Shown here in pieces: positions 6,772-21,383 of a stretch of 64,000 bases of DNA. The notes beneath the pieces were generated by a model. That model was not told the origin of the DNA and ran no database searches. It saw only the letters and a list, made by a program, of their open reading frames with translations. The stretch lies in contig DATKLO010000101.1 of NCBI GenBank assembly GCA_035542375.1, positions 1,209 through 65,208 of the forward strand, given 5' to 3'. A program made the translations under genes and the position numbers. Origin of the DNA: Steroidobacteraceae bacterium (GTDB lineage Bacteria; Pseudomonadota; Gammaproteobacteria; Steroidobacterales; Steroidobacteraceae). The stretch's first letter is position 1. Each line of letters starts with the position of its first letter.

Positions 6772-7767
6772 ATGATTCCTTTTTCCGTGCTCGACCTGTC
6801 ACCCGTCACGGCAGGTGGCAGCGTCGCGCAATCGTTGCGCAATACGCTGGACCTGGCGCGTCATGCCGAAGAGTGGGGCTACCGCCGTTACTGGCTGGCA
6901 GAGCATCACGGCATGCCCGGTATCGCCAGCGCCGCCACGGCGGTCGTGATCGGCCACGTCGCTGCCGGAACGACGCGTATCCGCGTGGGTGCCGGGGGCA
7001 TCATGCTGCCCAATCACTCACCACTGGTGGTCGCCGAGCAGTTCGGCACACTGGAAGCCCTGTTCCCGGGACGCATCGACCTCGGATTGGGTCGCGCGCC
7101 CGGTTCCGACCAGATCACGGCACGCGCGCTGCGACGCAATCTGGCCACCGACCCTGATGAATTCCCGCGCGATGTGCTGGAGCTGATGGGCTACCTTGCG
7201 CCCTCGCCACCTCCCAACCAGATCACGGCGATCCCGGGTGTGGGTTCGGACGTACCGTTGTGGATTCTCGGCTCCAGTCTGTTCGGTGCGCATGTGGCCG
7301 CCGCCCTGGGCCTGCCGTTCGCCTTCGCCTCACATTTCGCGCCGGCCATGTTGTCCGAGGCCATCGACGTGTATCGGCGCGGATTTCGACCCGGACGCCT
7401 GCCGCAGCCCTATTTGATGTTGGGATTCAACATCTTCGCGGCGGATAGCGACGACGAAGCACACCTGTTGGCGAGTTCCGCTCAGCAGGCTTTCGTCAAT
7501 CTGCGCAGTGGGCGTCCCGGGCAATTACCCCCGCCACTGAAGGATTACGAAAGCCAGCTTCATCCGCAGGCACGCGCGATGCTCGCGGATGTACTCGCCT
7601 GTTCGGCCATCGGGTCGGAAGCCACCGTGCGCGCGCGCGTCGCCGATTTCATCGCGCGCACGCGGCCGGATGAACTGATGATCACCTCGCAGATCTTCAG
7701 CCACGAGGCGCGGCTGAGCTCCTACCGGATCGCAGCCGCCGTACGGGACAGTCTTCAGTCCGCATGA
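6772..7767 (+). CDS. LLM-class (luciferase-like) flavin-dependent oxidoreductase
   Basis: [12 protein letters not shown]...[15 protein letters not shown]...[39 protein letters not shown] is the hallmark of the YhbW-like LLM family. Confidence 0.9.
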
Positions 7768-10574: not shown

Positions 10575-11098
10575 CGGGTACCGTGACGATCAAGGATCTG
10601 GTTGCCGCAGAGGTGCGCCGGCACGCGGAGGATCTCGCGACCGTGCTGGTTGATTGTGTCGAAGGTGGCGCTTCGGTCTCCTTCATGTTGCCTTTCGACA
10701 TGGAGCAGGCGCGCAAGTACTGGCGCGGCCTGGAACAGGCGGTCGCCGACGGCCGCGCGCACGTGTACGCCGCCCTGCAGGGTGAAATTCTCGGCGGTAC
10801 CGTGCAGTTGTGGCTCGATACGCCGGACAACCAGCGCCATCGCGGCGACATCCGCAAGCTTCTCGTGCACCGTTCGGTCAGGCGGCTGGGACTTGCGACG
10901 CGCCTCATGCTGCATGCGGAAACGGAAGCGCGCCGGCTCGGCTTGTCGCTACTGACGCTGGACACGGTCACGGCGAGCCCGGCGGAGAAGCTCTACGAAA
11001 CCCTGGGCTGGCACAAGGTGGGCGTGATTCCGCGCTTCGCGCTCTGGCCCGATGGCCGCTTCTGCGACGCGACGTTCCTCTACAAGGAGATCGGCTGA
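10571..11098 (+). CDS. GNAT family N-acetyltransferase
   Basis: 175 aa with RRLGLATRLM...A.KLYETLGW acetyl-CoA binding motifs. ATGA overlap with the MFS gene. Confidence 0.85.
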   Translation: MTGTVTIKDLVAAEVRRHAEDLATVLVDCVEGGASVSFMLPFDMEQARKYWRGLEQAVADGRAHVYAALQGEILGGTVQLWLDTPDNQRHRGDIRKLLVHRSVRRLGLATRLMLHAETEARRLGLSLLTLDTVTASPAEKLYETLGWHKVGVIPRFALWPDGRFCDATFLYKEIG

Positions 11099-13608
11099 GG
11101 CAGGTCGTGCGCCTCACCCGACGCGGCCGAACAGTTTGCCGCCCCGGCCGGCAGCGGCGCGCCCTGCATCTGCGCCAGCGGGATCGGCCGGCACAGGTGG
11201 AATCCCTGGGCATAGTCCACGCCGATCAGGGCGAGCGCGGTGAGCGCGGCTTCGTTCTCGACGCACTCGGCCACTGTCTCGATTCCCATGACGCGGCCGA
11301 TGCGCTGGATCGCCTCGACCACCGCGAAATCCACGGCATCGCTGCTGATGTCGCGCACGAAAGAGCCGTCGATCTTGATGAAGTCCAGCGGCAGTGCCTT
11401 GAGGTAGGAGAAGGAGGACATGCCGCTGCCGAAATCATCCAGCGCGATGGGACAGCCCAGATCCCGCAGGCGCCGCATCAGTTGCGAGGCGCTCGCCAGG
11501 TTGCCGATGGCCGCCGTCTCGGTCAGCTCCACGCCGAGGTGCCGCCCCGGCAGCCGGTTCGCGCTCAGGCACGTGCCAATGAAGTCCACCAGGCTGGCAT
11601 CGCTGACCGAGGCGCCGGACAGATTGATCATGCAGGTGGGCAACGTGAGCCCACCGGCCCGCAGGGCGGCGAGTTCGCGACAGGCCCGATCGATGACCCA
11701 GCGGTCGATGCGCGGCATCAGCCCGTAACGTTCCGCAGCCGGGATGAATGCCATCGGGGCAATCAACTCGCCCTCCGGTCCGACCATCCGCAGCAAGACC
11801 TCGAAGCGCCTGGCGGTGGGCGCCGCCGCCGAGCCCGCGGGCGCCCCGATCGCGCGGATCTCCTGCGCGTACAGGACGAACCTGTCGCTCTCCAGCGCCG
11901 CGTTCAGCCGTTCGACCCAGCGCATCTCGCCGTGCCGGTTCTTGACCTCCTGGTCATCAGGCCGGTAGAGCTGCACCCGGTTGCGGCCATTGTCCTTGGC
12001 GAGATAACACGCCTGGTCGGCCGCGCTGAGCGTCTCGCTCACCGTCGGCAGGGCCTCACCCAGGGCCAGCACGCCAATGCTGGCGTTCACGACGAAAATG
12101 CGATCCTGCCAGCGGAAACGCAGGTCGGCGATCCGGCACCGGATGCGCTCGGCCAGAACCAGGGCATCCACCGCGGGACAATCGGGCAACAATGCACCGA
12201 ACTCATCGCCGCCGAGGCGCGCGAGCACATCGCTGGCACGCAGTTGCGCCCCTACCAGCCAGGCGACCTGACGGATCAGCTCATCGCCCGCCGCATGGCC
12301 GCACGTGTCGTTGATGACCTTGAACTGGTCGAGATCGAAATACAGCAGCGAGTACTCCCTGCCGGTGGCGCGCTGGTCCTCGATGGCGACAGCCAGGCGC
12401 GACTCGAATTCGCGGCGGTTGGTCAGTCCGGTGAGCGAGTCGTGCGTGGCCTGATGCTGCAGGCGCGCGGCCAGTGCCCGCTCGTGTGTGATATCGCGCA
12501 AGACGAGCACGATGCCGAAGGACTCGCCGTTGCGATCGCGCAGTGGGGCGGCTCGCTCGTGCACAGGGATCTCCAGCCCGTGGCGCGTCCTCAACAGCAC
12601 GCCATTGGCCGCACCGGAGACCGACTCGCCGACGATGACCCGCTCGAGCTGGGCGATGATGCTGGGCTCGTCCGATTGGGGAGCGATCCGCAGCAGCTCG
12701 GTCAACGTGCGACCAAGTGCCTCCGCGTGTGACCAACCCGTCAAACGCTCGGCGGCGGCATTCATGTAGGTCACGCGGCGATCGCGGTTGGCGGTGATGA
12801 CTGCGTCCGAAATCGACCCCAGCGTGACGTGCGCGCGCTTCTGCTCGATGTAGATCCGCTCTTCGCTCGCGCGCAGGTCGCTCGCAAGCTTCTCACCCCG
12901 AACCAGATTGCGCCTCGAGATCGCCGCACCCACCGCTACCAGCGCGGCGCTGCACAGGCACAGCAATACGAGCAGCAGGTTGGTCACCGCGCGGGACAGG
13001 TTTCCCAGGTACACCGTGAAGGCATCTTCCAGCGGGGCGACCCGCTGATGGGTCTCATCGGCCTGCGCCACCAGTGCGGCCACTCGCCGCGCATCGGGAT
13101 GTCCGCTGGTCATCTCCTCGTGCAGGTTGGCGGCGATCGTAGACAGCTGCGCCATCAGCGCATCGCCGCGAGCCCAGAAGCCGATGGCGCTGGCCATCAT
13201 GGAGTTGTGCTGGAACAGCCCGAACAGGCGGATCATCCAGGGCACGTCGTGCGGATCGTTGCGACCCCGGAGAAAACCGCGCGCAGCGACCGTCGTATCC
13301 GGGTGCGCGCTCTGCAACTCCTGCCGCGCCAGCCGGTCACCGAGCGGGACGGCCAGCTCCTCTTGAAAATGACGGTAATCGGTCTGGCTACCGCTCGCAG
13401 CGTACTTGTGGAGCTCCGCCACGGCCTGTCGTTCGGCCTTGGACCACATGCCTTCGCCGTTGACGTAGGCACGCAGTCCGGAGAGCACCACGATACTGGC
13501 CACGCTGAGCAGCAGCATCAGCGACATGATCAGCACCAGGGGCCAGGTCACTGATACCAGCTTGCGGTCGGCGCCAGCGGCGGAGGTCGGAACCGGACTC
13601 AAGGACAT
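11080..13608 (-). CDS. Membrane sensor PAS-GGDEF-EAL protein (c-di-GMP cyclase/phosphodiesterase)
   Basis: Two TM helices flank a periplasmic domain, followed by PAS, RLGGDEFGALL (GGDEF) and an EVLLR...DDFGSG EAL domain. Confidence 0.9.
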   Translation of the reverse strand: MSLSPVPTSAAGADRKLVSVTWPLVLIMSLMLLLSVASIVVLSGLRAYVNGEGMWSKAERQAVAELHKYAASGSQTDYRHFQEELAVPLGDRLARQELQSAHPDTTVAARGFLRGRNDPHDVPWMIRLFGLFQHNSMMASAIGFWARGDALMAQLSTIAANLHEEMTSGHPDARRVAALVAQADETHQRVAPLEDAFTVYLGNLSRAVTNLLLVLLCLCSAALVAVGAAISRRNLVRGEKLASDLRASEERIYIEQKRAHVTLGSISDAVITANRDRRVTYMNAAAERLTGWSHAEALGRTLTELLRIAPQSDEPSIIAQLERVIVGESVSGAANGVLLRTRHGLEIPVHERAAPLRDRNGESFGIVLVLRDITHERALAARLQHQATHDSLTGLTNRREFESRLAVAIEDQRATGREYSLLYFDLDQFKVINDTCGHAAGDELIRQVAWLVGAQLRASDVLARLGGDEFGALLPDCPAVDALVLAERIRCRIADLRFRWQDRIFVVNASIGVLALGEALPTVSETLSAADQACYLAKDNGRNRVQLYRPDDQEVKNRHGEMRWVERLNAALESDRFVLYAQEIRAIGAPAGSAAAPTARRFEVLLRMVGPEGELIAPMAFIPAAERYGLMPRIDRWVIDRACRELAALRAGGLTLPTCMINLSGASVSDASLVDFIGTCLSANRLPGRHLGVELTETAAIGNLASASQLMRRLRDLGCPIALDDFGSGMSSFSYLKALPLDFIKIDGSFVRDISSDAVDFAVVEAIQRIGRVMGIETVAECVENEAALTALALIGVDYAQGFHLCRPIPLAQMQGAPLPAGAANCSAASGEAHDLPQPISL

Positions 13609-13817: not shown

Positions 13818-15797
13818 TCAGACAGACTGCAGCGGCCTCAACTCGACCAGGGATATCAACACTGTGAGCAGCGTCGCCGGATCGGCGCGCTCGCCGAGTA
13901 TCAGCAGCGACGGCTCGCGCTGGCCGCGCAGCGCCGCACACCCAGCCGCCAGCGCCGCGACCGGACAACGCCAGGGGCCTGCGTGGCCTGGCACTTCGAT
14001 GAGACCGAAGTCCCTGCCCGGTGCGTTGGTTGATCGATCGGCCGCGGGCATGGACTGCAACTGCGTGAGCAGCGAGTGCGCCTGGCCCGCCAGTCCCAGA
14101 GGCAGCCAGCCCCGCGGTGTCGGTTGTTCGTCGGCACAGAGCCGCAGCGTGCCCGAATTCGTCGCAGCGTCCGATGTCGGGCTACCATCCGACTGCACCG
14201 GCAAACACTCACCGGCGATGCGAACATTGACTCCGGCCGCGGCAGCCGCGACCGCTGCAATCCACAAGAGCGGTTGTCCCGCGGGACACACTTCCAGCCA
14301 CATTCCAGCGGACACGTCCTGTGCCGCAAGCCAGGAGGCCAGTCTGCCTGCGAACTCGGCGACATCCCGCCCACTCAGTGCACCCGCCGCGGCGGTATCG
14401 ATCAGGGGCCCATCGGAGCCACTCGCCAACACGAAACAGTCTTGCGCCAGGGACTCGCTCTGGCGTGCGTACTGGCTGGCATGCACACGCTGGAGCAAGT
14501 GAGCGTTGGCGCTCACACACGCGGGAAACAACAACTCCATCCGGCAGAGCGAGTGCAATGTCCGACTCATGATGGCCGGATCACACGCAGCCGACAGTAT
14601 CGACTCATGCGGGAGGCCCGCCGCTGCCAGATGCAGCGCCAGGATACCTGTCTCATCCAGCACGACCGGCCCCTCCGGAAGACGAGCCGTGTACGCCGGA
14701 TGTCGCAGCAGATAGTGACCCACGGTACCGTCATACCCTGCTCGCGACAGTTGCACGCACCGCCTTGCCAGGTTTAGGCGGAACATCGGATTGACGATGT
14801 ACCGAGGCTCCCCCGTATCTTGCTGCGTGCCGCAGGCCGCCGACGTGGCCGGCTGGGCGGGCTGGGTGGTCTCGGTGGGCTGGGTCGGCTGGGTCGGCTG
14901 GGGCAGGATCGCGATCAATCCGTTGTAGTGCGCGGTGTCGGAGTCATCCCTGAGCAATGCGGGCGTCGGACCGTCGAACAGGGCCGCCTCGCTGAACACG
15001 AATCCGCGTCGCGACGTGCCGGCGGTGAGACCGTCCAGCCAGCGACGATAATCGCGACCGTGAACCTTGGTACCACCGCGCTCGAAGTAGGGATCGGGCT
15101 CGCTGTTGGCCAGATGCACGTGCGCAAAGACCACGGCACCGCTGCCGCGATTCACACGCAGGCATTCCGCGGCAAACCGCTCCACGCCAAAGCGGTGCAG
15201 CGCATCGTGCGCGTGCACGAAATCGAAGACTTCATCCGCAAAGGGCAGCGGCCGGCCCGGATGATGGAACAGGATTTCGAGATTGCCAGGGCGTTGCCCG
15301 CTGCCCAGGAGACGTCGAAATCCACGATAACCCAGCACGCTGCTGTCTCCTTCCCACAGACTCACGATGAGCTGTTCGGGAAACAGTCCCGCGAGCCACT
15401 CGCCGCTCCATCCCGTCCGGCACCAGGTATCCAGGATCGCGCCGCCGCGGCGAACCGCCGGGCGAATGTGGGGCAGCAGGGTTTCGAGCGCGCGCTCGGA
15501 CTCGTTGAAAGGCTGAAACGCCGCGTAGGCTTCGATGAGATTGCGCGACTGCTTCTCGCGAAGATAGTCCTCGTACTGGCGCGCCGTGCCAAACAGTCTC
15601 GCGGCCAGGACCTCCAGTGCACCCGGCTCGGACAGTTCGCAGGCGGGTCGCGCCTCGGTGAAGAACGCAAACCCGTCGAGCACGGGAATCGCATCCCGGC
15701 AACCGCACAGCAGATAGCCATGCAGCCGGTCCCCCTGCTCCCGGTAACTTCCCCGGCAATCCGGACAACGCAGCAGGTTGAGCAGGCCCGGGCGCAT
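13818..15797 (-). CDS. Chimeric protein of unknown function: Trm112-like zinc ribbon, degenerate class I methyltransferase-like domain, PTQ-repeat linker, and a C-terminal region resembling the N-terminal lobe of an adenylate-forming enzyme
   Basis: LLNLLRCPDCRGS...LLCGCRDAIPVLDGFAFF (Trm112 type). ILDTWCRTGWSG stands in place of the GxGxG motif. Linker PQPTQPTQPTETTQPAQP. C-terminal part LSGRDVAEFAGRLASWLAAQDVSAGMWLEVCPAGQPLLWIAAVAAAAAGVNV. Last gene of the operon. Confidence 0.7.
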   Translation of the reverse strand: MRPGLLNLLRCPDCRGSYREQGDRLHGYLLCGCRDAIPVLDGFAFFTEARPACELSEPGALEVLAARLFGTARQYEDYLREKQSRNLIEAYAAFQPFNESERALETLLPHIRPAVRRGGAILDTWCRTGWSGEWLAGLFPEQLIVSLWEGDSSVLGYRGFRRLLGSGQRPGNLEILFHHPGRPLPFADEVFDFVHAHDALHRFGVERFAAECLRVNRGSGAVVFAHVHLANSEPDPYFERGGTKVHGRDYRRWLDGLTAGTSRRGFVFSEAALFDGPTPALLRDDSDTAHYNGLIAILPQPTQPTQPTETTQPAQPATSAACGTQQDTGEPRYIVNPMFRLNLARRCVQLSRAGYDGTVGHYLLRHPAYTARLPEGPVVLDETGILALHLAAAGLPHESILSAACDPAIMSRTLHSLCRMELLFPACVSANAHLLQRVHASQYARQSESLAQDCFVLASGSDGPLIDTAAAGALSGRDVAEFAGRLASWLAAQDVSAGMWLEVCPAGQPLLWIAAVAAAAAGVNVRIAGECLPVQSDGSPTSDAATNSGTLRLCADEQPTPRGWLPLGLAGQAHSLLTQLQSMPAADRSTNAPGRDFGLIEVPGHAGPWRCPVAALAAGCAALRGQREPSLLILGERADPATLLTVLISLVELRPLQSV

Positions 15798-15803
15798 CAG
15801 GAC

Positions 15804-15941
15804 TTACCGGTGCAGGTAGTAGAACTCGATCGCATCGCGATCGAAGAAGTAATAGACCAGCACGAGCAGGGCCGCGTACCACAGCGCGTACAACGTGTGG
15901 ACCAACGGTCGGGGCAGGTGGCGGAGGAGCAATTGATACAT
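15804..15941 (-). CDS. 45-aa single-pass microprotein, candidate DltX-like acyl-shuttle protein
   Basis: Not a separate track entry (under 60 aa). Self-translated: MYQLLLRHLPRPLVHTLYALWYAALLVLVYYFFDRDAIEFYYLHR*. It has one TM helix, a basic N-terminus and an aromatic C-terminal hexapeptide FYYLHR. It lies 20 nt after the MBOAT stop and 6 nt before the next start. No strong SD seen. Confidence 0.5.
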   Translation of the reverse strand: MYQLLLRHLPRPLVHTLYALWYAALLVLVYYFFDRDAIEFYYLHR

Positions 15942-15961
15942 GTCGGTACGGCCCGGGAGAT

Positions 15962-17098
15962 TCAGCCCGCACCCGGGATCAGGACGCGCTCGACGGCGCG
16001 GGTCACCCAGAAGCTGAACAGGACGAAATGCAGCGTAATGACACAGGCGAATACCCGCCACAGCGCGGCCGGCAGCGGCGGCAGCGCGGCAATCGACTCT
16101 CCCGCACGCGCGTCGAACCAGCGAAACCCGGCGATTCCGGCACCGTGATAGGCTCCCCAGAGCAGATAGTGGAGCGACAGGTCGTGCCAGATGCCCAGCA
16201 CGATCATGGATGCCATCACGGCGAGAAAGGGCCGGCGCGTGACCGACACCACCGGCGCGTAGACATATTCGCGGCACCAGCCGGCCAGTGTGATGTGCCA
16301 GCGCTGCCAGAAATCGGCGATGTTGCGCGCCACGATGGGCCAGTTGAAATTCTCGCGGATCCGTAATCCCATCAGCGCGCCGAACCCCACCGCGATGTCG
16401 CTGTAGCCGCTGAACAGCACGTACAGCCTCGCCCAGAACAGCAGCACGCTCAGGTACTGATGCAACAGCGGATGGCCGCTGGCACCGGCCAGCAATGGAG
16501 TCAGCTCCTCGCCGATGAGGTAATTGCCCAGCACGACCAGCTTCACCAGGCCGTACAGGATGCGCTGACCACCGTAGGAGAATCGGTCGGAATCCCAGCG
16601 CTTGCGCCGCAGATCACGCAGGTAATCATCGAAGCGATGGATCGGGCCCGCGGGCAGCGTCGCGGGCAGGAAGTGATAGCTAAGATATTCCCCCAGCGTG
16701 TGCGGTCGCAGATGGCCCTTGTACGCCTCCAACAGGTAATGGATCAGGCGGAGCGCATAGAACGCCATGCCCAACGGAAGGACCACGCGCAGGGTGAGCG
16801 ATGTGCTGCTGTGCTCGCTGCGCGCGAGCAGAAGAAGATAGGCGCCAGCAATGATCGTGACGCTGACCAGCAGCACGTATCTCGTCAGCAGTCCGCGCCG
16901 TTGTAAGACGAACGTGACCACGCTGGCCACGGCAAGCAACGCCAGTGAAGTCGGCGACGCCATCGCCAGCAGACCGGCGCCACAGAGCGCAATCAACCAG
17001 GGTTGCAGGGCGCGCCACGGCAGCCAGGCCATGATGACGGCGGCACTCGAACTCGCCAGGACGAGTTGCAGGACGTCCTGCTCAGCCATGGTTCGCAC
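15962..17098 (-). CDS. MBOAT family membrane-bound O-acyltransferase (DltB/AlgI-like)
   Basis: 378 aa, polytopic, with NIADFWQRWHITL and GIWHD conserved-His motifs. Confidence 0.9.
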   Translation of the reverse strand: MRTMAEQDVLQLVLASSSAAVIMAWLPWRALQPWLIALCGAGLLAMASPTSLALLAVASVVTFVLQRRGLLTRYVLLVSVTIIAGAYLLLLARSEHSSTSLTLRVVLPLGMAFYALRLIHYLLEAYKGHLRPHTLGEYLSYHFLPATLPAGPIHRFDDYLRDLRRKRWDSDRFSYGGQRILYGLVKLVVLGNYLIGEELTPLLAGASGHPLLHQYLSVLLFWARLYVLFSGYSDIAVGFGALMGLRIRENFNWPIVARNIADFWQRWHITLAGWCREYVYAPVVSVTRRPFLAVMASMIVLGIWHDLSLHYLLWGAYHGAGIAGFRWFDARAGESIAALPPLPAALWRVFACVITLHFVLFSFWVTRAVERVLIPGAG

Positions 17099-17990
17099 GC
17101 GCCGCCATCAACTTGCCGGCGAGCCATTGGCTGAAGAGTTCGCGACCCGCCGCGGACATGTGCCCCTCGTCGCAGAAAGCCGAGTCCGGCAGTGGCGCCG
17201 CTGACCAGAGCTGGAAACCGTTGTCGCGCGCCAGCTGCGGGAGAATGACGGAGTCGATGCGCGCCAGCGATGAGGGGACCAGCGCCTCGGCCCAGGCAGC
17301 GCGCGGCAGACGGACCAGGATGATCCGCGTCCCCGCCTTCTGCAGAGCGCCCAACATATCCAGGTAGCGCTGGCGACTCAGGGACGAGCTCGGGCGGGTC
17401 GTCTTGAGGTGCGCGGCGTAGATCAACTGCTGGGTTTGAGTCTGGCGGATGCGACATTCCCGTGCGTCGGGAAACTGCTCTGCTCCGCGGTTCTCGCCGA
17501 AGTTGGGATCCACGCCGCTGTCCCCCACCAGCACCTGATGCAACGCCCGCTCCAGCGGCAGCAGGTTCTGGCGGATCGGAAAATGCGCGCCGCGATCCAG
17601 CAGCAGCAGGTCGCTCTCCAGCAGCAGGATGTCGGGCGGATGAGCGGCGAGCGCGCGCAGGGCCGGTTGCACGTCCCAGAAGTTCGCCCCTTCCCAGGTG
17701 ATCCGCTCGAAGTCCACTGCCTGCGAGCCACCGAGACGGGCAGCGAAGTTCGCGTCGAAGTCGACTGCATACAGTGTTTTCGACGAGCCCAGAGCGACGA
17801 TGCGCACAGCAGACGGCGGTGCTGGAACCGTCAGGCGCTCGAGATTGAGATTGGCGTCCGACGCAGCCGTTATATGATGCGCCAGCGCCGGTATCCGGTC
17901 CTCATTGGCCAGGAAGACCAGCAGTACCGCGATGATGCCGGCCGTGCCGTACCAAACGCTCAGCGGTGGAAATTGCCTCGAGGGGCTCAA
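17082..17990 (-). CDS. Membrane-anchored SGNH/DltD-like putative acyltransferase
   Basis: N-terminal TM helix. ALGSSKT resembles SGNH block I (Ser nucleophile) and CDEGHMS resembles block V (DxxH). It sits between the carrier-ligase and MBOAT genes. Confidence 0.6.
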   Translation of the reverse strand: MSPSRQFPPLSVWYGTAGIIAVLLVFLANEDRIPALAHHITAASDANLNLERLTVPAPPSAVRIVALGSSKTLYAVDFDANFAARLGGSQAVDFERITWEGANFWDVQPALRALAAHPPDILLLESDLLLLDRGAHFPIRQNLLPLERALHQVLVGDSGVDPNFGENRGAEQFPDARECRIRQTQTQQLIYAAHLKTTRPSSSLSRQRYLDMLGALQKAGTRIILVRLPRAAWAEALVPSSLARIDSVILPQLARDNGFQLWSAAPLPDSAFCDEGHMSAAGRELFSQWLAGKLMAARANHG

Positions 17991-19813
17991 GCGGACTCGA
18001 GAAACTCGAGAGCCCGGTCCAGACGATCGAGTGACATGATCTGGCGCGGGCTGAAACGCACGCCAAACTCGCGTTCCAGTCCGGCAACGAGTTCCAGATG
18101 CGCCAGCGAGTCCCAGCCCACCACGTCATCCGGGGTGCTCGCGAGACTCAGCATAGCCGCCTCGGTCCTGAAACACTTCGCGGCAACTTCGAGCAGGCGT
18201 CTGGCCCGGTCGGCGGCATCCGTCGCGCCCCCTTGCGCGCGGGCGCGCCGGTCCTGCAGCAGTTCACGCACTGCCTCCATCCGCACCTTGCCGGACAGGC
18301 CGCGCGGCAGCCTCTCCACCCGCTCGAACCGGCTTGGCACCTTGCGCGGCTCGAGTTGCCGGCCGCAGTGAGCCAGCAGTTCCTCGTTGGAAACGCTGTC
18401 CTCGGCGCTGACCACACAGCAGACGGTCTCACCCCAGATCTCGTCCGGCATGCCGATGGTCACCGCCTCGCGTACCGCGGGATGGCGCTGCAATACCTCC
18501 GTGATCTCCTCCGGGTGGATGTTGTAGCCACCGCGGATGATCAGATTCTTGTAGCGACCGCAGATCCAGTAGAAGCCGTCCGCGTCGCGGCGAGCGGCAT
18601 CGCCGGTCCGGAACCAGCCATCGCGCAGCACCTCGGCAGTCAGCTGCGGAGCGTTGAAATAACCCGACATCAGCAGATCACCGCTCATCCACAGTTCGCC
18701 CACTTCATTCACCAGCGCCTCCGTGCCATCCGGCCGCACGATACGCAGCTGGCAGTCCACCGGGACACCGATGCTGCCCGGCCTGCGACTGGCCGCATCC
18801 GGTCCGCAGAACACGCCGCCGACTACCGTTTCGGTGAGTCCGTACACGTTGACGATCGGCACGCGGAAGGTGCTCTCGAAGCTCTCGCACAGGGCGGCTT
18901 CGAGCTGGGCGCCGCACGAGATGAGCAAGCGGAAGTCGCCTCCCTGGAATGCATCGCGATGTTCCAGCCCGAGCCGCTGGATGAGTGCCATCATGGTCGG
19001 CACGGCCACGAGATGCGTGATCCGCAGTTGATACACGGCATCGAGCAGACGGTCGATGGCCGTCACTTCGAAGCGCAGGGGACGGAACACCGCGATCGCG
19101 TTGAAGAATGCGATGACCGGCCCCTGGATCATGCCATCGGCGTGCGCCAGCATCAGAATGTTCAGGATCCGGCTCTGCGGCGTGTAGCCGAAGCGGCGCG
19201 TGAGCGTACGCAAGTGCGCAAACAGGGCGCGATGGCTGATCGCCACACCCTTGGGCTGCTCCGTCGTGCCCGAGGTGAACATCACGTAGGCCAGGGTCTC
19301 CGGGTCGATCGTGCGCGGTGGCGGCCGTGAACCCGCGGCTTCGAGCAGCCCGTGCAGATCATCCCCATCGGCCGCGCGGCGCAGTTTGCCGAACAATCCT
19401 TTGGCAGCCGCGCGGTCGATCATACGAACTGGCGCATCGCCTGCCGGAAGCTCCCAACGGACCGACAGCTCGCGGTCCATCAGAAGCAGGCGCGGTGCGG
19501 CGGCGGCGACCAGCGTGCGTGCGCGCTCCGGACCCATCTCGGGATCCAGGTTGACGACCGTGATGCCCCAACACATCGAAGCGACGAACAACAGGGCGGA
19601 TTCGACCTCGTCAGCCGTGGCGATGATGACTCGGTCGCCCGCCTGCACACCCTGGGAGGCAAACACCGGACCCAGTGCTTCGATCCGTTCGCGCAACTGG
19701 CCAAAGGTGACCGTGCGCCCGGCAGCCACCAGCCAGGGTTTGCGTGCGAGCTGTGGAGCGCAGATCCGCTCGTAGCATTCGAAGGCGTCGGCACTCGCTG
19801 CGCGCTCAAGCAT
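17987..19813 (-). CDS. Adenylate-forming enzyme (AMP-binding) fused to a C-terminal acyl/peptidyl carrier domain
   Basis: MFTSGTTEQPKGV, YGLTET, GWFRTGD, GRYKNLIIRGGYNIHPEEI, LSGKV, then a roughly 80-aa tail with the phosphopantetheine motif GWDSLAHLELV. Confidence 0.9.
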   Translation of the reverse strand: MLERAASADAFECYERICAPQLARKPWLVAAGRTVTFGQLRERIEALGPVFASQGVQAGDRVIIATADEVESALLFVASMCWGITVVNLDPEMGPERARTLVAAAAPRLLLMDRELSVRWELPAGDAPVRMIDRAAAKGLFGKLRRAADGDDLHGLLEAAGSRPPPRTIDPETLAYVMFTSGTTEQPKGVAISHRALFAHLRTLTRRFGYTPQSRILNILMLAHADGMIQGPVIAFFNAIAVFRPLRFEVTAIDRLLDAVYQLRITHLVAVPTMMALIQRLGLEHRDAFQGGDFRLLISCGAQLEAALCESFESTFRVPIVNVYGLTETVVGGVFCGPDAASRRPGSIGVPVDCQLRIVRPDGTEALVNEVGELWMSGDLLMSGYFNAPQLTAEVLRDGWFRTGDAARRDADGFYWICGRYKNLIIRGGYNIHPEEITEVLQRHPAVREAVTIGMPDEIWGETVCCVVSAEDSVSNEELLAHCGRQLEPRKVPSRFERVERLPRGLSGKVRMEAVRELLQDRRARAQGGATDAADRARRLLEVAAKCFRTEAAMLSLASTPDDVVGWDSLAHLELVAGLEREFGVRFSPRQIMSLDRLDRALEFLESA

Positions 19814-21383
19814 TGAACAGCTCTCTCAGTGTGTGTCGAAGTATCTTGCCGCTGGTGTTGCGCGGAATCTGCGTGACGCAACGGAACACAGCCGGTGCCC
19901 GCTCGCGACCGAGGCGATCCGAGACGAAATTGGCGATGGCCTTGAGTTCGGGTCCGGTAGGCTGCCACCCCGCGCGCGGCACCAGTACCGCGGCGATGCT
20001 CTCGCCGCCGGCGGGCTGCGGCAGGCCGCAGACGGCCGCCTCGGCAATGTTGGCGTGTTGTTCGAGCACCGTCTCGATCTCCAGCGGATGGACGCGCTCG
20101 GTGCCCTGCGTCTTGATGAAATTCGAGCGCCGGCCCACGAGTGTGATCCGGCCATCCTGATGCTGTCGGACGATGTCGCCCGTGCGCAGCCAGCCGCCCG
20201 TGAAGCACTGCGCGGTGGCTTCCGGGTCGCCTAGATAGCCGCTCATGGGCCACTCCTGCCGGATCCGCAATTCTCCTGCAGTTCCGGCGGATACCGGCAG
20301 ACCTTCGGCATCCACGATACGGATCTCGCAGCCGGCCGGCCACCCCAGACTGGTGTCGGAGTGACTCCAGCCGGCGAGGCGCTGGCTCAGGCACAGGCCC
20401 ACCGACTCGGTCAGTCCGTAGTAGTTGATCACCGGGATGTGGAAGCGTTCGAAGAAGGCGCTGACCTCCGGGACGCTCAGATCCGTGCCCGTGCAGTACA
20501 TGGCGCGTGTTTCGGCCAGCAGCCCGGATGGAACGCGCTCACCGAGCAGATTGATCTGTCGCAGCAGCAGTGGCGCCGCGACGATTCGCTGCGGCCGCGC
20601 CTGCTGCAACAGCTCGAGTAGCGCGAAGATGTCGGTGCGCCGCGAACGCGGCGCGCACACCCAGTGCATCCCCGCCAGTGGCGCCGCCAGGAAAGCGTTA
20701 CGCAGACCACTCATGCTCTGTGGGTCGGGGAGGTTCAGGAGCCGCTCCCCGGCTGACCATTCGAAGGTACGCACTGCGAGAACGGCGCTGCGCACGAGTG
20801 CTCCGCGGCTCAGTACCACCGCCTTGGGCTCCGCAGTGGTCCCCGAGGTAAACAGACATGCCGCAGGGATGCCCGAGTCGAATTCCCGCGGCAAGGCAGC
20901 CCCGGTTTCAGACGCCGCCGCGGCGGTGCCGGCCGCGAGCGAGTCCATCTCGAATTGCAAGGTCGGCAGCGCCCCATCCAGCGCGTGCCAGCGAGCGCGC
21001 TCGCTCGCGTCGCCGACCACGAGCGCGCGCGGTCCGATCTTGCGAAGAGCGAGCCGACGCAGCGTCTCGGCCCACGAGGGATCGACAGGCACAAAGGCGG
21101 CACCCAGACGCACGCAAGCCCAGAAAGCGATGAATGCCGCGGGGCCTTGCTCGCCACAATGCATTACACGGTCGCCCGCGCACACGCCGCGGGCAACGAG
21201 CTGGCTGGCAGCCCGGTCGATGCTTTCGAGCAATCTGGCTCCGGCCAGTGTTGCGGATTCGCCTGCCGTGGACAGCACGAACTCCGGGCCCGCCGAGCCT
21301 CCCGCGAATAGGGGACCGAGCATGATGCGGCTTCGAGCTCCTTGAGCGCACCGTTGTGATTCTTGTGGGGGCGATAGTAGCAA
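19806..21383 (-). CDS. Adenylate-forming enzyme (AMP-binding), stand-alone
   Basis: FTSGTTAEPKAV, YGLTES, GWLRTGD, GRRSNFIKTQGTERVHPLEIE, PRNTSGKILR. The start may instead be the internal ATG at 21323 (MLGPLF...). Confidence 0.85.
   Translation of the reverse strand: MLLSPPQESQRCAQGARSRIMLGPLFAGGSAGPEFVLSTAGESATLAGARLLESIDRAASQLVARGVCAGDRVMHCGEQGPAAFIAFWACVRLGAAFVPVDPSWAETLRRLALRKIGPRALVVGDASERARWHALDGALPTLQFEMDSLAAGTAAAASETGAALPREFDSGIPAACLFTSGTTAEPKAVVLSRGALVRSAVLAVRTFEWSAGERLLNLPDPQSMSGLRNAFLAAPLAGMHWVCAPRSRRTDIFALLELLQQARPQRIVAAPLLLRQINLLGERVPSGLLAETRAMYCTGTDLSVPEVSAFFERFHIPVINYYGLTESVGLCLSQRLAGWSHSDTSLGWPAGCEIRIVDAEGLPVSAGTAGELRIRQEWPMSGYLGDPEATAQCFTGGWLRTGDIVRQHQDGRITLVGRRSNFIKTQGTERVHPLEIETVLEQHANIAEAAVCGLPQPAGGESIAAVLVPRAGWQPTGPELKAIANFVSDRLGRERAPAVFRCVTQIPRNTSGKILRHTLRELFNA

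What the first reader, a model, noticed from the sequence alone, without database searches (positions are those of the whole stretch)
15804..15941. Unlisted 45-aa microprotein with a C-terminal FYYLHR hexapeptide resembling the DltX acyl-shuttle motif
Reverse-strand translation gives MYQLLLRHLPRPLVHTLYALWYAALLVLVYYFFDRDAIEFYYLHR*. It has one TM helix and a basic N-terminus (predicted cytoplasmic), with a short tail outside. Firmicute DltX proteins, as I recall them, end in FIYNEF (F-x-Y-x-x-F), and the Tyr is the acyl acceptor. Here the last six residues are F-Y-Y-L-H-R, so the F-x-Y core is kept. The ORF sits between the MBOAT gene and the last operon gene with very short spacers, which is the expected placement for a component that bridges MBOAT and SGNH proteins. 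It is below the 60-aa cutoff and appears in the track only as the tail of a spurious 157-aa ORF (15804..16277).
Basis: partly seen in the sequence, partly recalled or inferred. Interest (0 to 1): 0.8.

Follow-up and report, generated by a model that had tools for sequence, protein, structure and literature searches.

The report
DltX-like acyl-shuttle microprotein beside a short MBOAT
The 45-codon gene is real, conserved across several bacterial phyla, and most likely encodes a tiny membrane protein whose tail tyrosine ferries an acyl group from a membrane acyltransferase to a periplasmic transferase, as DltX does in Gram-positive bacteria, though it belongs to an unannotated family in an undescribed six-gene cassette.

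Summary
The ORF at 15804..15941 (-) exists exactly as described. It is protein-coding: pN/pS is about 0.2-0.6 in its own frame and 0.7-3.9 in the other two. A profile search finds 292 clusters of roughly 45-aa proteins. Tyr at the fourth-last position is present in 166 of the 168 small members examined, and Phe at the sixth-last in 160.

In 12 genomes from at least six phyla the gene directly follows a short MBOAT that ends without a motif, often overlapping its stop codon. Forty more distant MBOATs carry FIYFQF-type ends fused to themselves.

The window cassette also encodes two adenylating enzymes, one fused to a carrier domain. It encodes a membrane-anchored SGNH-fold protein with invariant G-x-S and D-x-x-H, and a 659-aa protein of unknown role. 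The MBOAT's only solved relatives by sequence are DltB.

The family is not a sequence member of Pfam DltX: there is no hit, while a genuine DltX scores 2e-21. The last residue here is Arg, not Phe. The acyl group and the acceptor are unknown. This is a new variant of a known mechanism. A second split family ending PFIYVAF turned up in passing.

The parts
15804..15941 (-). 45-codon microprotein gene (ATG at 15941, TAA at 15806-15804)
   Evidence: Translation. Homologues. Purifying selection in this frame only.
15807..15824 (-). C-terminal hexapeptide F40-Y41-Y42-L43-H44-R45. Tyr42 (15816-15818) is the proposed acyl acceptor.
   Evidence: Tyr42 is the only invariant column in A2 and A3. Tyr is at -4 in 166/168 and Phe at -6 in 160/168. 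hhalign places it in register with the FIYFQF end of fused MBOATs.
15846..15911 (-). Transmembrane helix of the microprotein (residues 11-32), preceded by basic residues R7, H8 and R11
   Evidence: Hydropathy. AF2 helix 11-32 with pLDDT 88-90.
15962..17098 (-). Short DltB-like MBOAT (378 aa) ending RVLIPGAG without a motif. The conserved His305 lies at 16184-16186 in GIWHD.
   Evidence: PF03062, E 4.9e-21. Best NCBIfam hit is DltB TIGR04091 at 156 bits, below the 375 cut-off. The only PDB sequence relatives are DltB 6BUG and 8JEM, E 3e-28. His positions.
17082..17990 (-). 302-aa membrane-anchored SGNH-fold protein, the proposed DltD/PatB-type final transferase. TM helix at 10-28. Invariant G68-x-S70 and D274-x-x-H277.
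   Evidence: No Pfam or NCBIfam hit. Alignment A4. AF2 model with pLDDT 76. All the best-scoring Foldseek matches to solved natural proteins are SGNH/GDSL enzymes; PatB 8tlb and DltD 7dxm appear further down at ranks 41 and 44.
17987..19813 (-). 608-aa adenylating enzyme fused to a carrier (PP-binding) domain, the proposed acyl donor
   Evidence: PF00501, PF13193 and PF00550. Conserved upstream of the MBOAT in L001-L012.
19806..21383 (-). 525-aa second adenylating enzyme without a carrier domain. First gene of the cassette. Role unknown.
   Evidence: PF00501 and PF13193. Conserved in related loci.
13818..15797 (-). 659-aa last gene of the cassette: N-terminal Zn-ribbon (Trm112/UPF0434-like), weak methyltransferase-like region, remainder unknown
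   Evidence: Methyltransf_11, E 7.8e-5. PDB 2js4, E 0.097. A homologue is present in 8 of the 12 related loci, at either end of the cassette.

Best explanation
The 45-aa product is a single-pass inner-membrane microprotein, N-terminus in and 13-residue tail out. It acts as the detachable acyl shuttle of a carrier-protein-dependent MBOAT-SGNH acylation machine.

The proposed steps are all inferred by analogy with Dlt and PatAB:
1. The 608-aa adenylating enzyme loads an acyl or aminoacyl group onto its own phosphopantetheinyl carrier domain.
2. The short DltB-like MBOAT (His305) passes the group through the membrane onto Tyr42, the fourth-last residue of the microprotein.
3. The flexible tail delivers it to Ser70 of the periplasmic SGNH-fold 302-aa protein.
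4. That protein esterifies an unidentified envelope polymer or lipid.

What is shown here is that the gene is real and under purifying selection, and that its position, size, topology and F-x-Y-x-x-x end are conserved across phyla. It is also shown that the MBOAT lacks the fused motif and that all the partner parts are encoded alongside. In evolutionary terms the microprotein corresponds to the last helix plus motif that other bacterial MBOATs carry fused.
For: The gene is coding: pS 0.55-0.93 against pN 0.14-0.40 in its own frame, while pN/pS is 0.7-3.9 in the other frames.

The family is large and uniform. There are 292 clusters at E<=1e-3, nearly all 44-49 aa. Tyr is at -4 in 166/168 and Phe at -6 in 160/168. 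Tyr42 is the sole invariant residue even at 16-24% identity.

Synteny is tight. In L001-L012 the gene starts -17 to +17 nt from the stop of a short MBOAT.

Split and fused forms are complementary. Forty MBOATs carry a fused F[ILM]Y[FYA]x[F] end. Of the 39 that do not, 34 have a separate small ORF with a TM helix and [FILMV]xYxxx end nearby on the same strand. The same scan gave 3 hits in the 40 fused loci.

The profile of the family matches the last 48 residues of fused MBOATs in register (hhalign prob 70%, E 4e-5, score 23.1). This is as good as genuine DltX (56%, 1e-4, 21.8) and above all 40 column shuffles (max 15.3).

The partners are present: a carrier domain and adenylating enzymes, a DltB-like MBOAT, and an SGNH fold with an N-terminal anchor and invariant GxS and DxxH.

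The architecture equals that of DltX: TM 11-32 plus a disordered tail, against TM 12-33 plus a tail in B. thuringiensis DltX.

The mechanism has precedent in DltX Tyr and PatA Tyr acyl intermediates (PMC12148441).
Against: No sequence membership in DltX. PF12459 gives no hit even at E<=10, while B. thuringiensis DltX scores 2e-21. The direct profile comparison with DltX scores 12.7 (P 0.023), which is not above the shuffles (max 17.7).

The last residue is Arg in this clade and variable elsewhere (L/W/Y/I/F/R/G), whereas the described motif ends in Phe.

The gene lies after the MBOAT, not before the adenylase gene as dltX does.

The window has no evident Shine-Dalgarno sequence.

Novosphingobium homologues carry the Tyr 7 residues from the end.

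A co-fold with the MBOAT could not be run.

No experiment shows translation or Tyr acylation. The acyl group, the acceptor, and the roles of the second adenylase and the 659-aa protein are unknown.
Confidence: 0.77

Rival explanations
1. The microprotein is real but is only a structural, assembly or regulatory subunit of the MBOAT complex. The conserved Tyr serves packing or binding and is never acylated. The MBOAT would hand the acyl group directly to the SGNH protein or to the acceptor.
For: The terminal Phe of the canonical motif is not kept. There is no significant direct similarity to DltX. No biochemical data exist.
Against: The only invariant residue is the Tyr, at a fixed distance from the free C-terminus in 166/168 members. 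That is exactly the geometry of the proven acyl-Tyr sites in DltX and PatA. MBOATs without this partner carry the motif fused.
Confidence: 0.14
2. It is a true DltX orthologue and the cassette is a Gram-negative dlt operon that D-alanylates an envelope polymer, as proposed for the Dickeya and Pectobacterium dlt genes.
For: The MBOAT's best family and only solved relatives are DltB. The logic of adenylase, carrier, MBOAT, SGNH and microprotein is the same. dlt genes with a same-topology but dissimilar DltX are reported in Gram-negatives (PMC5541007).
Against: The MBOAT scores 156 bits against a DltB equivalog cut-off of 375. The adenylases match generic acyl-CoA-ligase models best and no DltA model is among the hits listed. 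The SGNH protein has no DltD Pfam hit. PF12459 is not matched. The cassette has a second adenylase and a 659-aa extra gene that dlt operons lack.
Confidence: 0.06
3. The ORF is spurious, or is a fragment of a once-fused MBOAT split by a frameshift or an assembly error, and makes no functional product.
For: It is below usual gene-calling length. It lies in a 65% GC region where long chance ORFs abound. The window has no clear Shine-Dalgarno sequence.
Against: The split is conserved with its own start codon in 12 genomes of several phyla and 5 metagenome contigs, with frame-specific purifying selection. There are 292 database clusters of the same length. The MBOAT also lacks the preceding extra helix, so a single frameshift cannot explain the arrangement.
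Confidence: 0.02

Closest known systems
DltX (Pfam PF12459), the acyl-shuttle microprotein of the Firmicute dltXABCD teichoic-acid D-alanylation pathway
   Same: It is a ~45-50-aa single-pass membrane protein with a short basic N-terminus, a ~22-residue helix and a 12-15-residue outside tail. Phe lies at -6 and an invariant Tyr at -4 from the C-terminus. It is encoded with a short MBOAT that lacks its own motif, an adenylating enzyme, a carrier and a membrane-anchored SGNH protein.
   Different: There is no detectable match to the DltX HMM. The terminal residue is Arg here and variable in the family, not Phe. The gene follows the MBOAT instead of preceding the adenylase gene. The hosts are Gram-negative phyla. 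The carrier is fused to the adenylase. The cassette has a second adenylase and a 659-aa protein.
The fused C-terminal acyl-shuttle motif of PatA, AlgI and WssH-type bacterial MBOATs (FIYANF / FIYFQF)
   Same: Both have a final TM helix followed by a short linker and F-x-Y-x-x-x at the extreme C-terminus. The profile-profile match is in register (prob 70%, E 4e-5). Both are partnered with a periplasmic SGNH transferase.
   Different: Here the element is a separate polypeptide and the MBOAT ends after its core. The donor is predicted to be a carrier-protein thioester rather than acetyl-CoA.
Gram-negative dlt-like loci (Dickeya and Pectobacterium dltXABCD)
   Same: Both are Dlt-type logic in a Gram-negative host. 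The literature notes a small protein with the DltX topology but no sequence similarity (PMC5541007).
   Different: I could not retrieve those sequences to compare them. The window cassette has a different gene content and order.

Membership tests
DltX (PF12459; NCBI 'teichoic acid D-Ala incorporation-associated protein DltX') | Significant match to the family HMM | tested here: not met
   No PF12459 hit for the window protein, 7 close relatives or 4 distant relatives, even at E<=10. The positive control, B. thuringiensis DltX, scores E 2e-21. No NCBIfam hit. Direct hhalign against 5 DltX sequences gives P 0.023, within the shuffle range.
DltX (PF12459; NCBI 'teichoic acid D-Ala incorporation-associated protein DltX') | A ~50-aa single-pass membrane microprotein with a basic N-terminus and a short extracytoplasmic C-terminal tail | tested here: met
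   45 aa. Hydrophobic segment at 13-31. AF2 helix 11-32 and coil 33-45. R7, H8 and R11 precede the helix. The orientation itself is inferred from the positive-inside rule.
DltX (PF12459; NCBI 'teichoic acid D-Ala incorporation-associated protein DltX') | Invariant Tyr fourth from the C-terminus with Phe two residues before it (the F-x-Y of FxYxxF) | tested here: met
   Tyr at -4 in 166/168 and Phe at -6 in 160/168 representatives. It is the sole invariant column in A2 and A3.
DltX (PF12459; NCBI 'teichoic acid D-Ala incorporation-associated protein DltX') | Terminal Phe of the FxYxxF hexapeptide | tested here: not met
   The window ends in Arg. Family-wide the last residue is L 49, W 30, Y 21, I 20, R 15 and F 12 of 168.
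DltX (PF12459; NCBI 'teichoic acid D-Ala incorporation-associated protein DltX') | Tyr is transiently acylated by the MBOAT and donates the group to the SGNH protein | not testable with these tools
   This needs reconstitution and mass spectrometry, or Tyr-to-Phe genetics.
Dlt pathway (DltA/DltB/DltC/DltD) | The MBOAT is a DltB equivalog | tested here: not met
   TIGR04091 is the best hit but scores 156 bits against a cut-off of 375. It is DltB-like in extent, and its only PDB relatives are 6BUG and 8JEM.
Dlt pathway (DltA/DltB/DltC/DltD) | Adenylating enzyme plus phosphopantetheinyl carrier as the acyl donor | tested here: met
   PF00501 and PF13193 twice. PF00550 is fused to the 608-aa enzyme. 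D-Ala specificity was not tested.
Dlt pathway (DltA/DltB/DltC/DltD) | DltD-family SGNH transferase | tested here: inconclusive
   No Pfam or NCBIfam hit at all, hence none to DltD models. The fold is SGNH, with an N-terminal anchor and invariant GxS and DxxH. DltD 7dxm is only a weak structural match (E 4e-3).
Fused-motif bacterial MBOATs (PatA/AlgI/WssH type) | Two extra C-terminal helices ending in FxYxxF on the MBOAT itself | tested here: not met
   The MBOAT ends RVLIPGAG 13 residues after the region that aligns with DltB. Forty more distant relatives do carry the fused motif.

The most novel reading that the evidence does not exclude
The cassette is a previously unrecognised, phylum-spanning, carrier-protein-dependent envelope-acylation pathway of Gram-negative bacteria. 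It would install something other than acetate or D-alanine, with two adenylases and a methyltransferase-like protein suggesting a tailored acyl or aminoacyl group. Detachable Tyr-shuttle microproteins would then be a general, repeatedly evolved or ancestral partner of short MBOATs, with at least two new families beyond DltX. This would contradict the published statement that non-Dlt MBOAT pathways lack such a microprotein.
Probability: 0.45. Interest if true: 0.7.

Novelty: new variant of a known kind. Interest (0 to 1): 0.6.

Why it matters
The acyl-Tyr shuttle is the recently established way that bacteria move acyl groups from the cytoplasm onto envelope polymers. The literature held here describes the free-standing shuttle (DltX) as a Gram-positive feature. 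It states that other MBOAT pathways lack such a microprotein and instead carry the motif fused (PMC12148441; PMC13653941).

This locus shows an unannotated family of ~45-aa shuttles, at least 292 clusters, in Proteobacteria, Bacteroidota, Nitrospinota, Thermodesulfobacteriota and cyanobacterial relatives. The family is tied to an undescribed six-gene cassette.

That gives a concrete and testable handle on an unknown envelope modification: one Tyr codon, one Ser and one His. It also flags a class of genes that annotation pipelines miss or label as hypothetical.

Tried and rejected
- **Pfam and NCBIfam scans of the microprotein.** Both were negative, including relaxed thresholds and relatives.
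- **PDB sequence search.** I searched with the family profile and with a DltX profile. Neither found a DltX chain, so no structural comparison of the shuttle was possible.
- **Direct profile comparison with five DltX sequences taken from plasmid-labelled Firmicute records.** The alignment is in register but not significant.
- **The Schultz et al. 2023 primary paper (PMC10664464).** It is not held, so I relied on its description in PMC12148441.
- **Rfam scan of the window.** Nothing found.
- **Promoter and terminator scan of the operon.** Nothing above shuffles.
- **GC profile.** There is no compositional island.
- **PDB and family searches of the 659-aa protein.** Only a marginal Zn-ribbon match and a weak methyltransferase match.
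- **Idea that split shuttles go with carrier-dependent donors.** I rejected this because the second split family (PFIYVAF) in L031 has no adenylase or carrier nearby.
- **First hhalign run.** Its fused-MBOAT set wrongly included L001, whose MBOAT happens to end LTYLTR. I removed L001 and reran.

Full report
**Observation**

The minus-strand ORF at 15804..15941 reads MYQLLLRHLPRPLVHTLYALWYAALLVLVYYFFDRDAIEFYYLHR*. In the mechanical ORF list it appears only as the tail of a 157-aa GTG ORF. It sits 20 nt after the stop of a 378-aa MBOAT (15962..17098; PF03062, E 4.9e-21) and 6 nt before the ATG of a 659-aa gene.

Hydropathy gives one hydrophobic segment at residues 13-31. An AF2 model built on 28 homologues gives helices 2-8 and 11-32 and an unstructured tail 33-45. 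The description is therefore correct in every detail.

**Is it a gene?**

A word-indexed search found seven 45-aa relatives at 71-98% identity. A profile search found 27. An exhaustive HMMER search of 1.84 billion cluster representatives found 292 at E<=1e-3, almost all 44-49 aa and matched end to end.

I took DNA from four metagenome contigs and one genome that carry close relatives. It shows pS 0.55-0.93 against pN 0.14-0.40 in the ORF's frame. In the other two frames pN/pS is 0.7-3.9. The gene is protein-coding and under purifying selection.

**What is conserved**

In alignments reaching down to 16-24% identity, the only invariant residue is Tyr42, the fourth residue from the end. Among 168 small representatives:
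- Tyr is at -4 in 166. The two exceptions are off by one residue.
- Phe is at -6 in 160.
- The last residue is usually hydrophobic or aromatic (L 49, W 30, Y 21, I 20, F 12). It is Arg or Gly in the window's own clade.

The family motif is F-[R/Y/K]-Y-x-x-Phi at a free C-terminus. This is the geometry of the published FXYXXF acyl-shuttle motif (PMC12148441).

**Context in other genomes**

A scan of one genome per species returned 80 loci with relatives of the MBOAT.
- The 12 closest (36-52% identity) come from Nevskiales and Xanthomonadales-type Gammaproteobacteria, Alphaproteobacteria, Bacteroidota, Nitrospinota, Thermodesulfobacteriota and Sericytochromatia. All have a short MBOAT followed by the ~45-aa ORF, starting -17 to +17 nt from the MBOAT stop.
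- Forty more distant MBOATs are longer and end in FIYFQF, FIYFRF, FIYANF and similar motifs.
- Of the 39 MBOATs without a fused motif, 34 have a separate small ORF nearby on the same strand with a TM helix and an [FILMV]xYxxx end. The same scanner gave 3 hits in the 40 fused loci.

Split and fused forms are thus complementary. That is what is expected if the microprotein supplies the missing shuttle.

**Relationship to DltX and to fused motifs**

The Pfam DltX model (PF12459) recognises B. thuringiensis DltX at E 2e-21. It gives nothing for the window protein or its relatives, even at E<=10. NCBIfam gives nothing.

A direct profile-profile comparison with five Firmicute DltX sequences aligns the helix and the F-x-Y in register. 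It scores only 12.7, within the range of column-shuffled controls.

Against the last 48 residues of the 40 fused MBOATs, the new family scores 23.1 (prob 70%, E 4e-5). Genuine DltX scores 21.8 (56%, 1e-4) and the shuffles reach at most 15.3. The microprotein therefore resembles the terminal helix plus motif of fused MBOATs at least as well as DltX does. It cannot be filed as a sequence member of the DltX family.

**The rest of the machine**

Upstream on the same strand lie three genes:
- a 525-aa adenylating enzyme;
- a 608-aa adenylating enzyme with a C-terminal PP-binding carrier domain;
- a 302-aa protein with no family hit.

The 302-aa protein has an N-terminal TM helix (10-28) and invariant G68-x-S70 and D274-x-x-H277. 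Its AF2 model (pLDDT 76) has SGNH/GDSL enzymes as all of its best-scoring matches to solved natural proteins. The envelope transferases PatB (8tlb) and DltD (7dxm) also appear, but only at ranks 41 and 44.

The MBOAT keeps the family His (H305, GIWHD). Its best NCBIfam model is DltB, below the equivalog cut-off. Its only solved sequence relatives are DltB structures, aligned almost to both C-termini.

Both adenylases upstream of the MBOAT are detectable in ten of the twelve related loci (the other two contigs are too short), and a homologue of the 659-aa gene in eight. A clear match to the 302-aa protein appears in only three loci, though a gene-sized gap of about 900 nt lies in the same place. 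The close metagenomic relatives keep all six genes but have different flanking genes. No compositional island is visible.

**Mechanism**

The best-supported reading is a Dlt-like relay: carrier thioester, then MBOAT His305, then Tyr42 of the microprotein, then Ser70 of the SGNH protein, then an envelope acceptor.

The parts and their conservation are shown. The chemistry is inferred from DltX and PatA and from the DltX-DltD tail interaction (PMC13653941). The acyl group, the acceptor, and the roles of the first adenylase and the 659-aa protein remain unknown. The 659-aa protein has a marginal Zn-ribbon match and a weak methyltransferase match.

**Weak points**

- There is no HMM membership in DltX.
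- The terminal Phe is absent.
- The gene order differs from dltXABCD.
- The window has no clear Shine-Dalgarno sequence, although relatives show GGAGG or overlapping stop and start codons.
- Novosphingobium homologues carry three extra C-terminal residues.
- No co-fold could be run.

**Novelty**

The held literature describes the free shuttle as Gram-positive and says that other MBOAT pathways lack it. One paper notes that the Gram-negative species carrying dlt genes (it names Dickeya and Pectobacterium) have a small protein with the DltX topology but no sequence similarity. Searches for the motif or for microprotein partners of MBOATs found nothing else. The primary 2023 paper was not available.

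I rate this a new variant of a known kind. The mechanism is familiar. The protein family, the cassette and the taxonomic range are new.

Noticed in passing
L031 8201-8335; L025 8411-8548; L063 8076-8201; L016 7198-7398; 21 loci in all: There is a second, distinct family of free microproteins (38-70 aa) ending PFIYVAF, PFIYVSF or PFIYANF. It lies on the same strand after a short MBOAT plus one ~390-460-aa gene with no Pfam hit, in Opitutae, Verrucomicrobiota, Melainabacteria, Obscuribacterales and cyanobacteria. L031 has no adenylase or carrier nearby, and PF12459 is not matched.
   Followed up: partly
L013 5726-5854: In this alphaproteobacterial locus the candidate shuttle ORF (42 aa, ending FRYQMY) lies just upstream of the short MBOAT instead of downstream.
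   Followed up: no
L014 6792-6920 (and the same genus in L019): The Novosphingobium homologue of the microprotein ends ...NVYVDVRGQ, so the Tyr is 7 residues from the end rather than 4. It is either a genuine variant or a different stop in these MAGs.
   Followed up: no
L061 1967-2191: A locus whose MBOAT already has a fused FIYFQF end also encodes a separate 74-aa ORF ending APFIYQLF, about 4 kb upstream. It may serve another acyltransferase.
   Followed up: no
window 13818-15797 (-): The 659-aa last gene of the cassette has an N-terminal CxxC...CxC ribbon like UPF0434/Trm112 (PDB 2js4, E 0.097). It also has a weak Methyltransf_11 match with an unusual DTWCRTGW motif that is conserved in distant loci. 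Its C-terminal half is uncharacterised.
   Followed up: partly
L085, L087, L088, L089 against window 13818-21383: Close relatives keep the six-gene cassette intact but have unrelated genes on both sides, such as ribosomal L28/L33, peptidase M20 and a TonB receptor. This suggests the cassette moves as a unit. The GC content of the window shows no island.
   Followed up: partly
window 11080-13608 (-): A PAS-GGDEF-EAL protein (842 aa) is encoded 210 nt downstream of the cassette on the same strand. It is a possible c-di-GMP link to envelope or biofilm functions, but it is not conserved next to the cassette in relatives.
   Followed up: no
L001 about 7126-7143 (MBOAT C-terminus): The Panacagrimonas MBOAT itself ends ...LTYLTR, mimicking an [L]xYxxR end although it also has the separate microprotein. 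This is probably chance, but it contaminated my first fused-motif set.
   Followed up: yes
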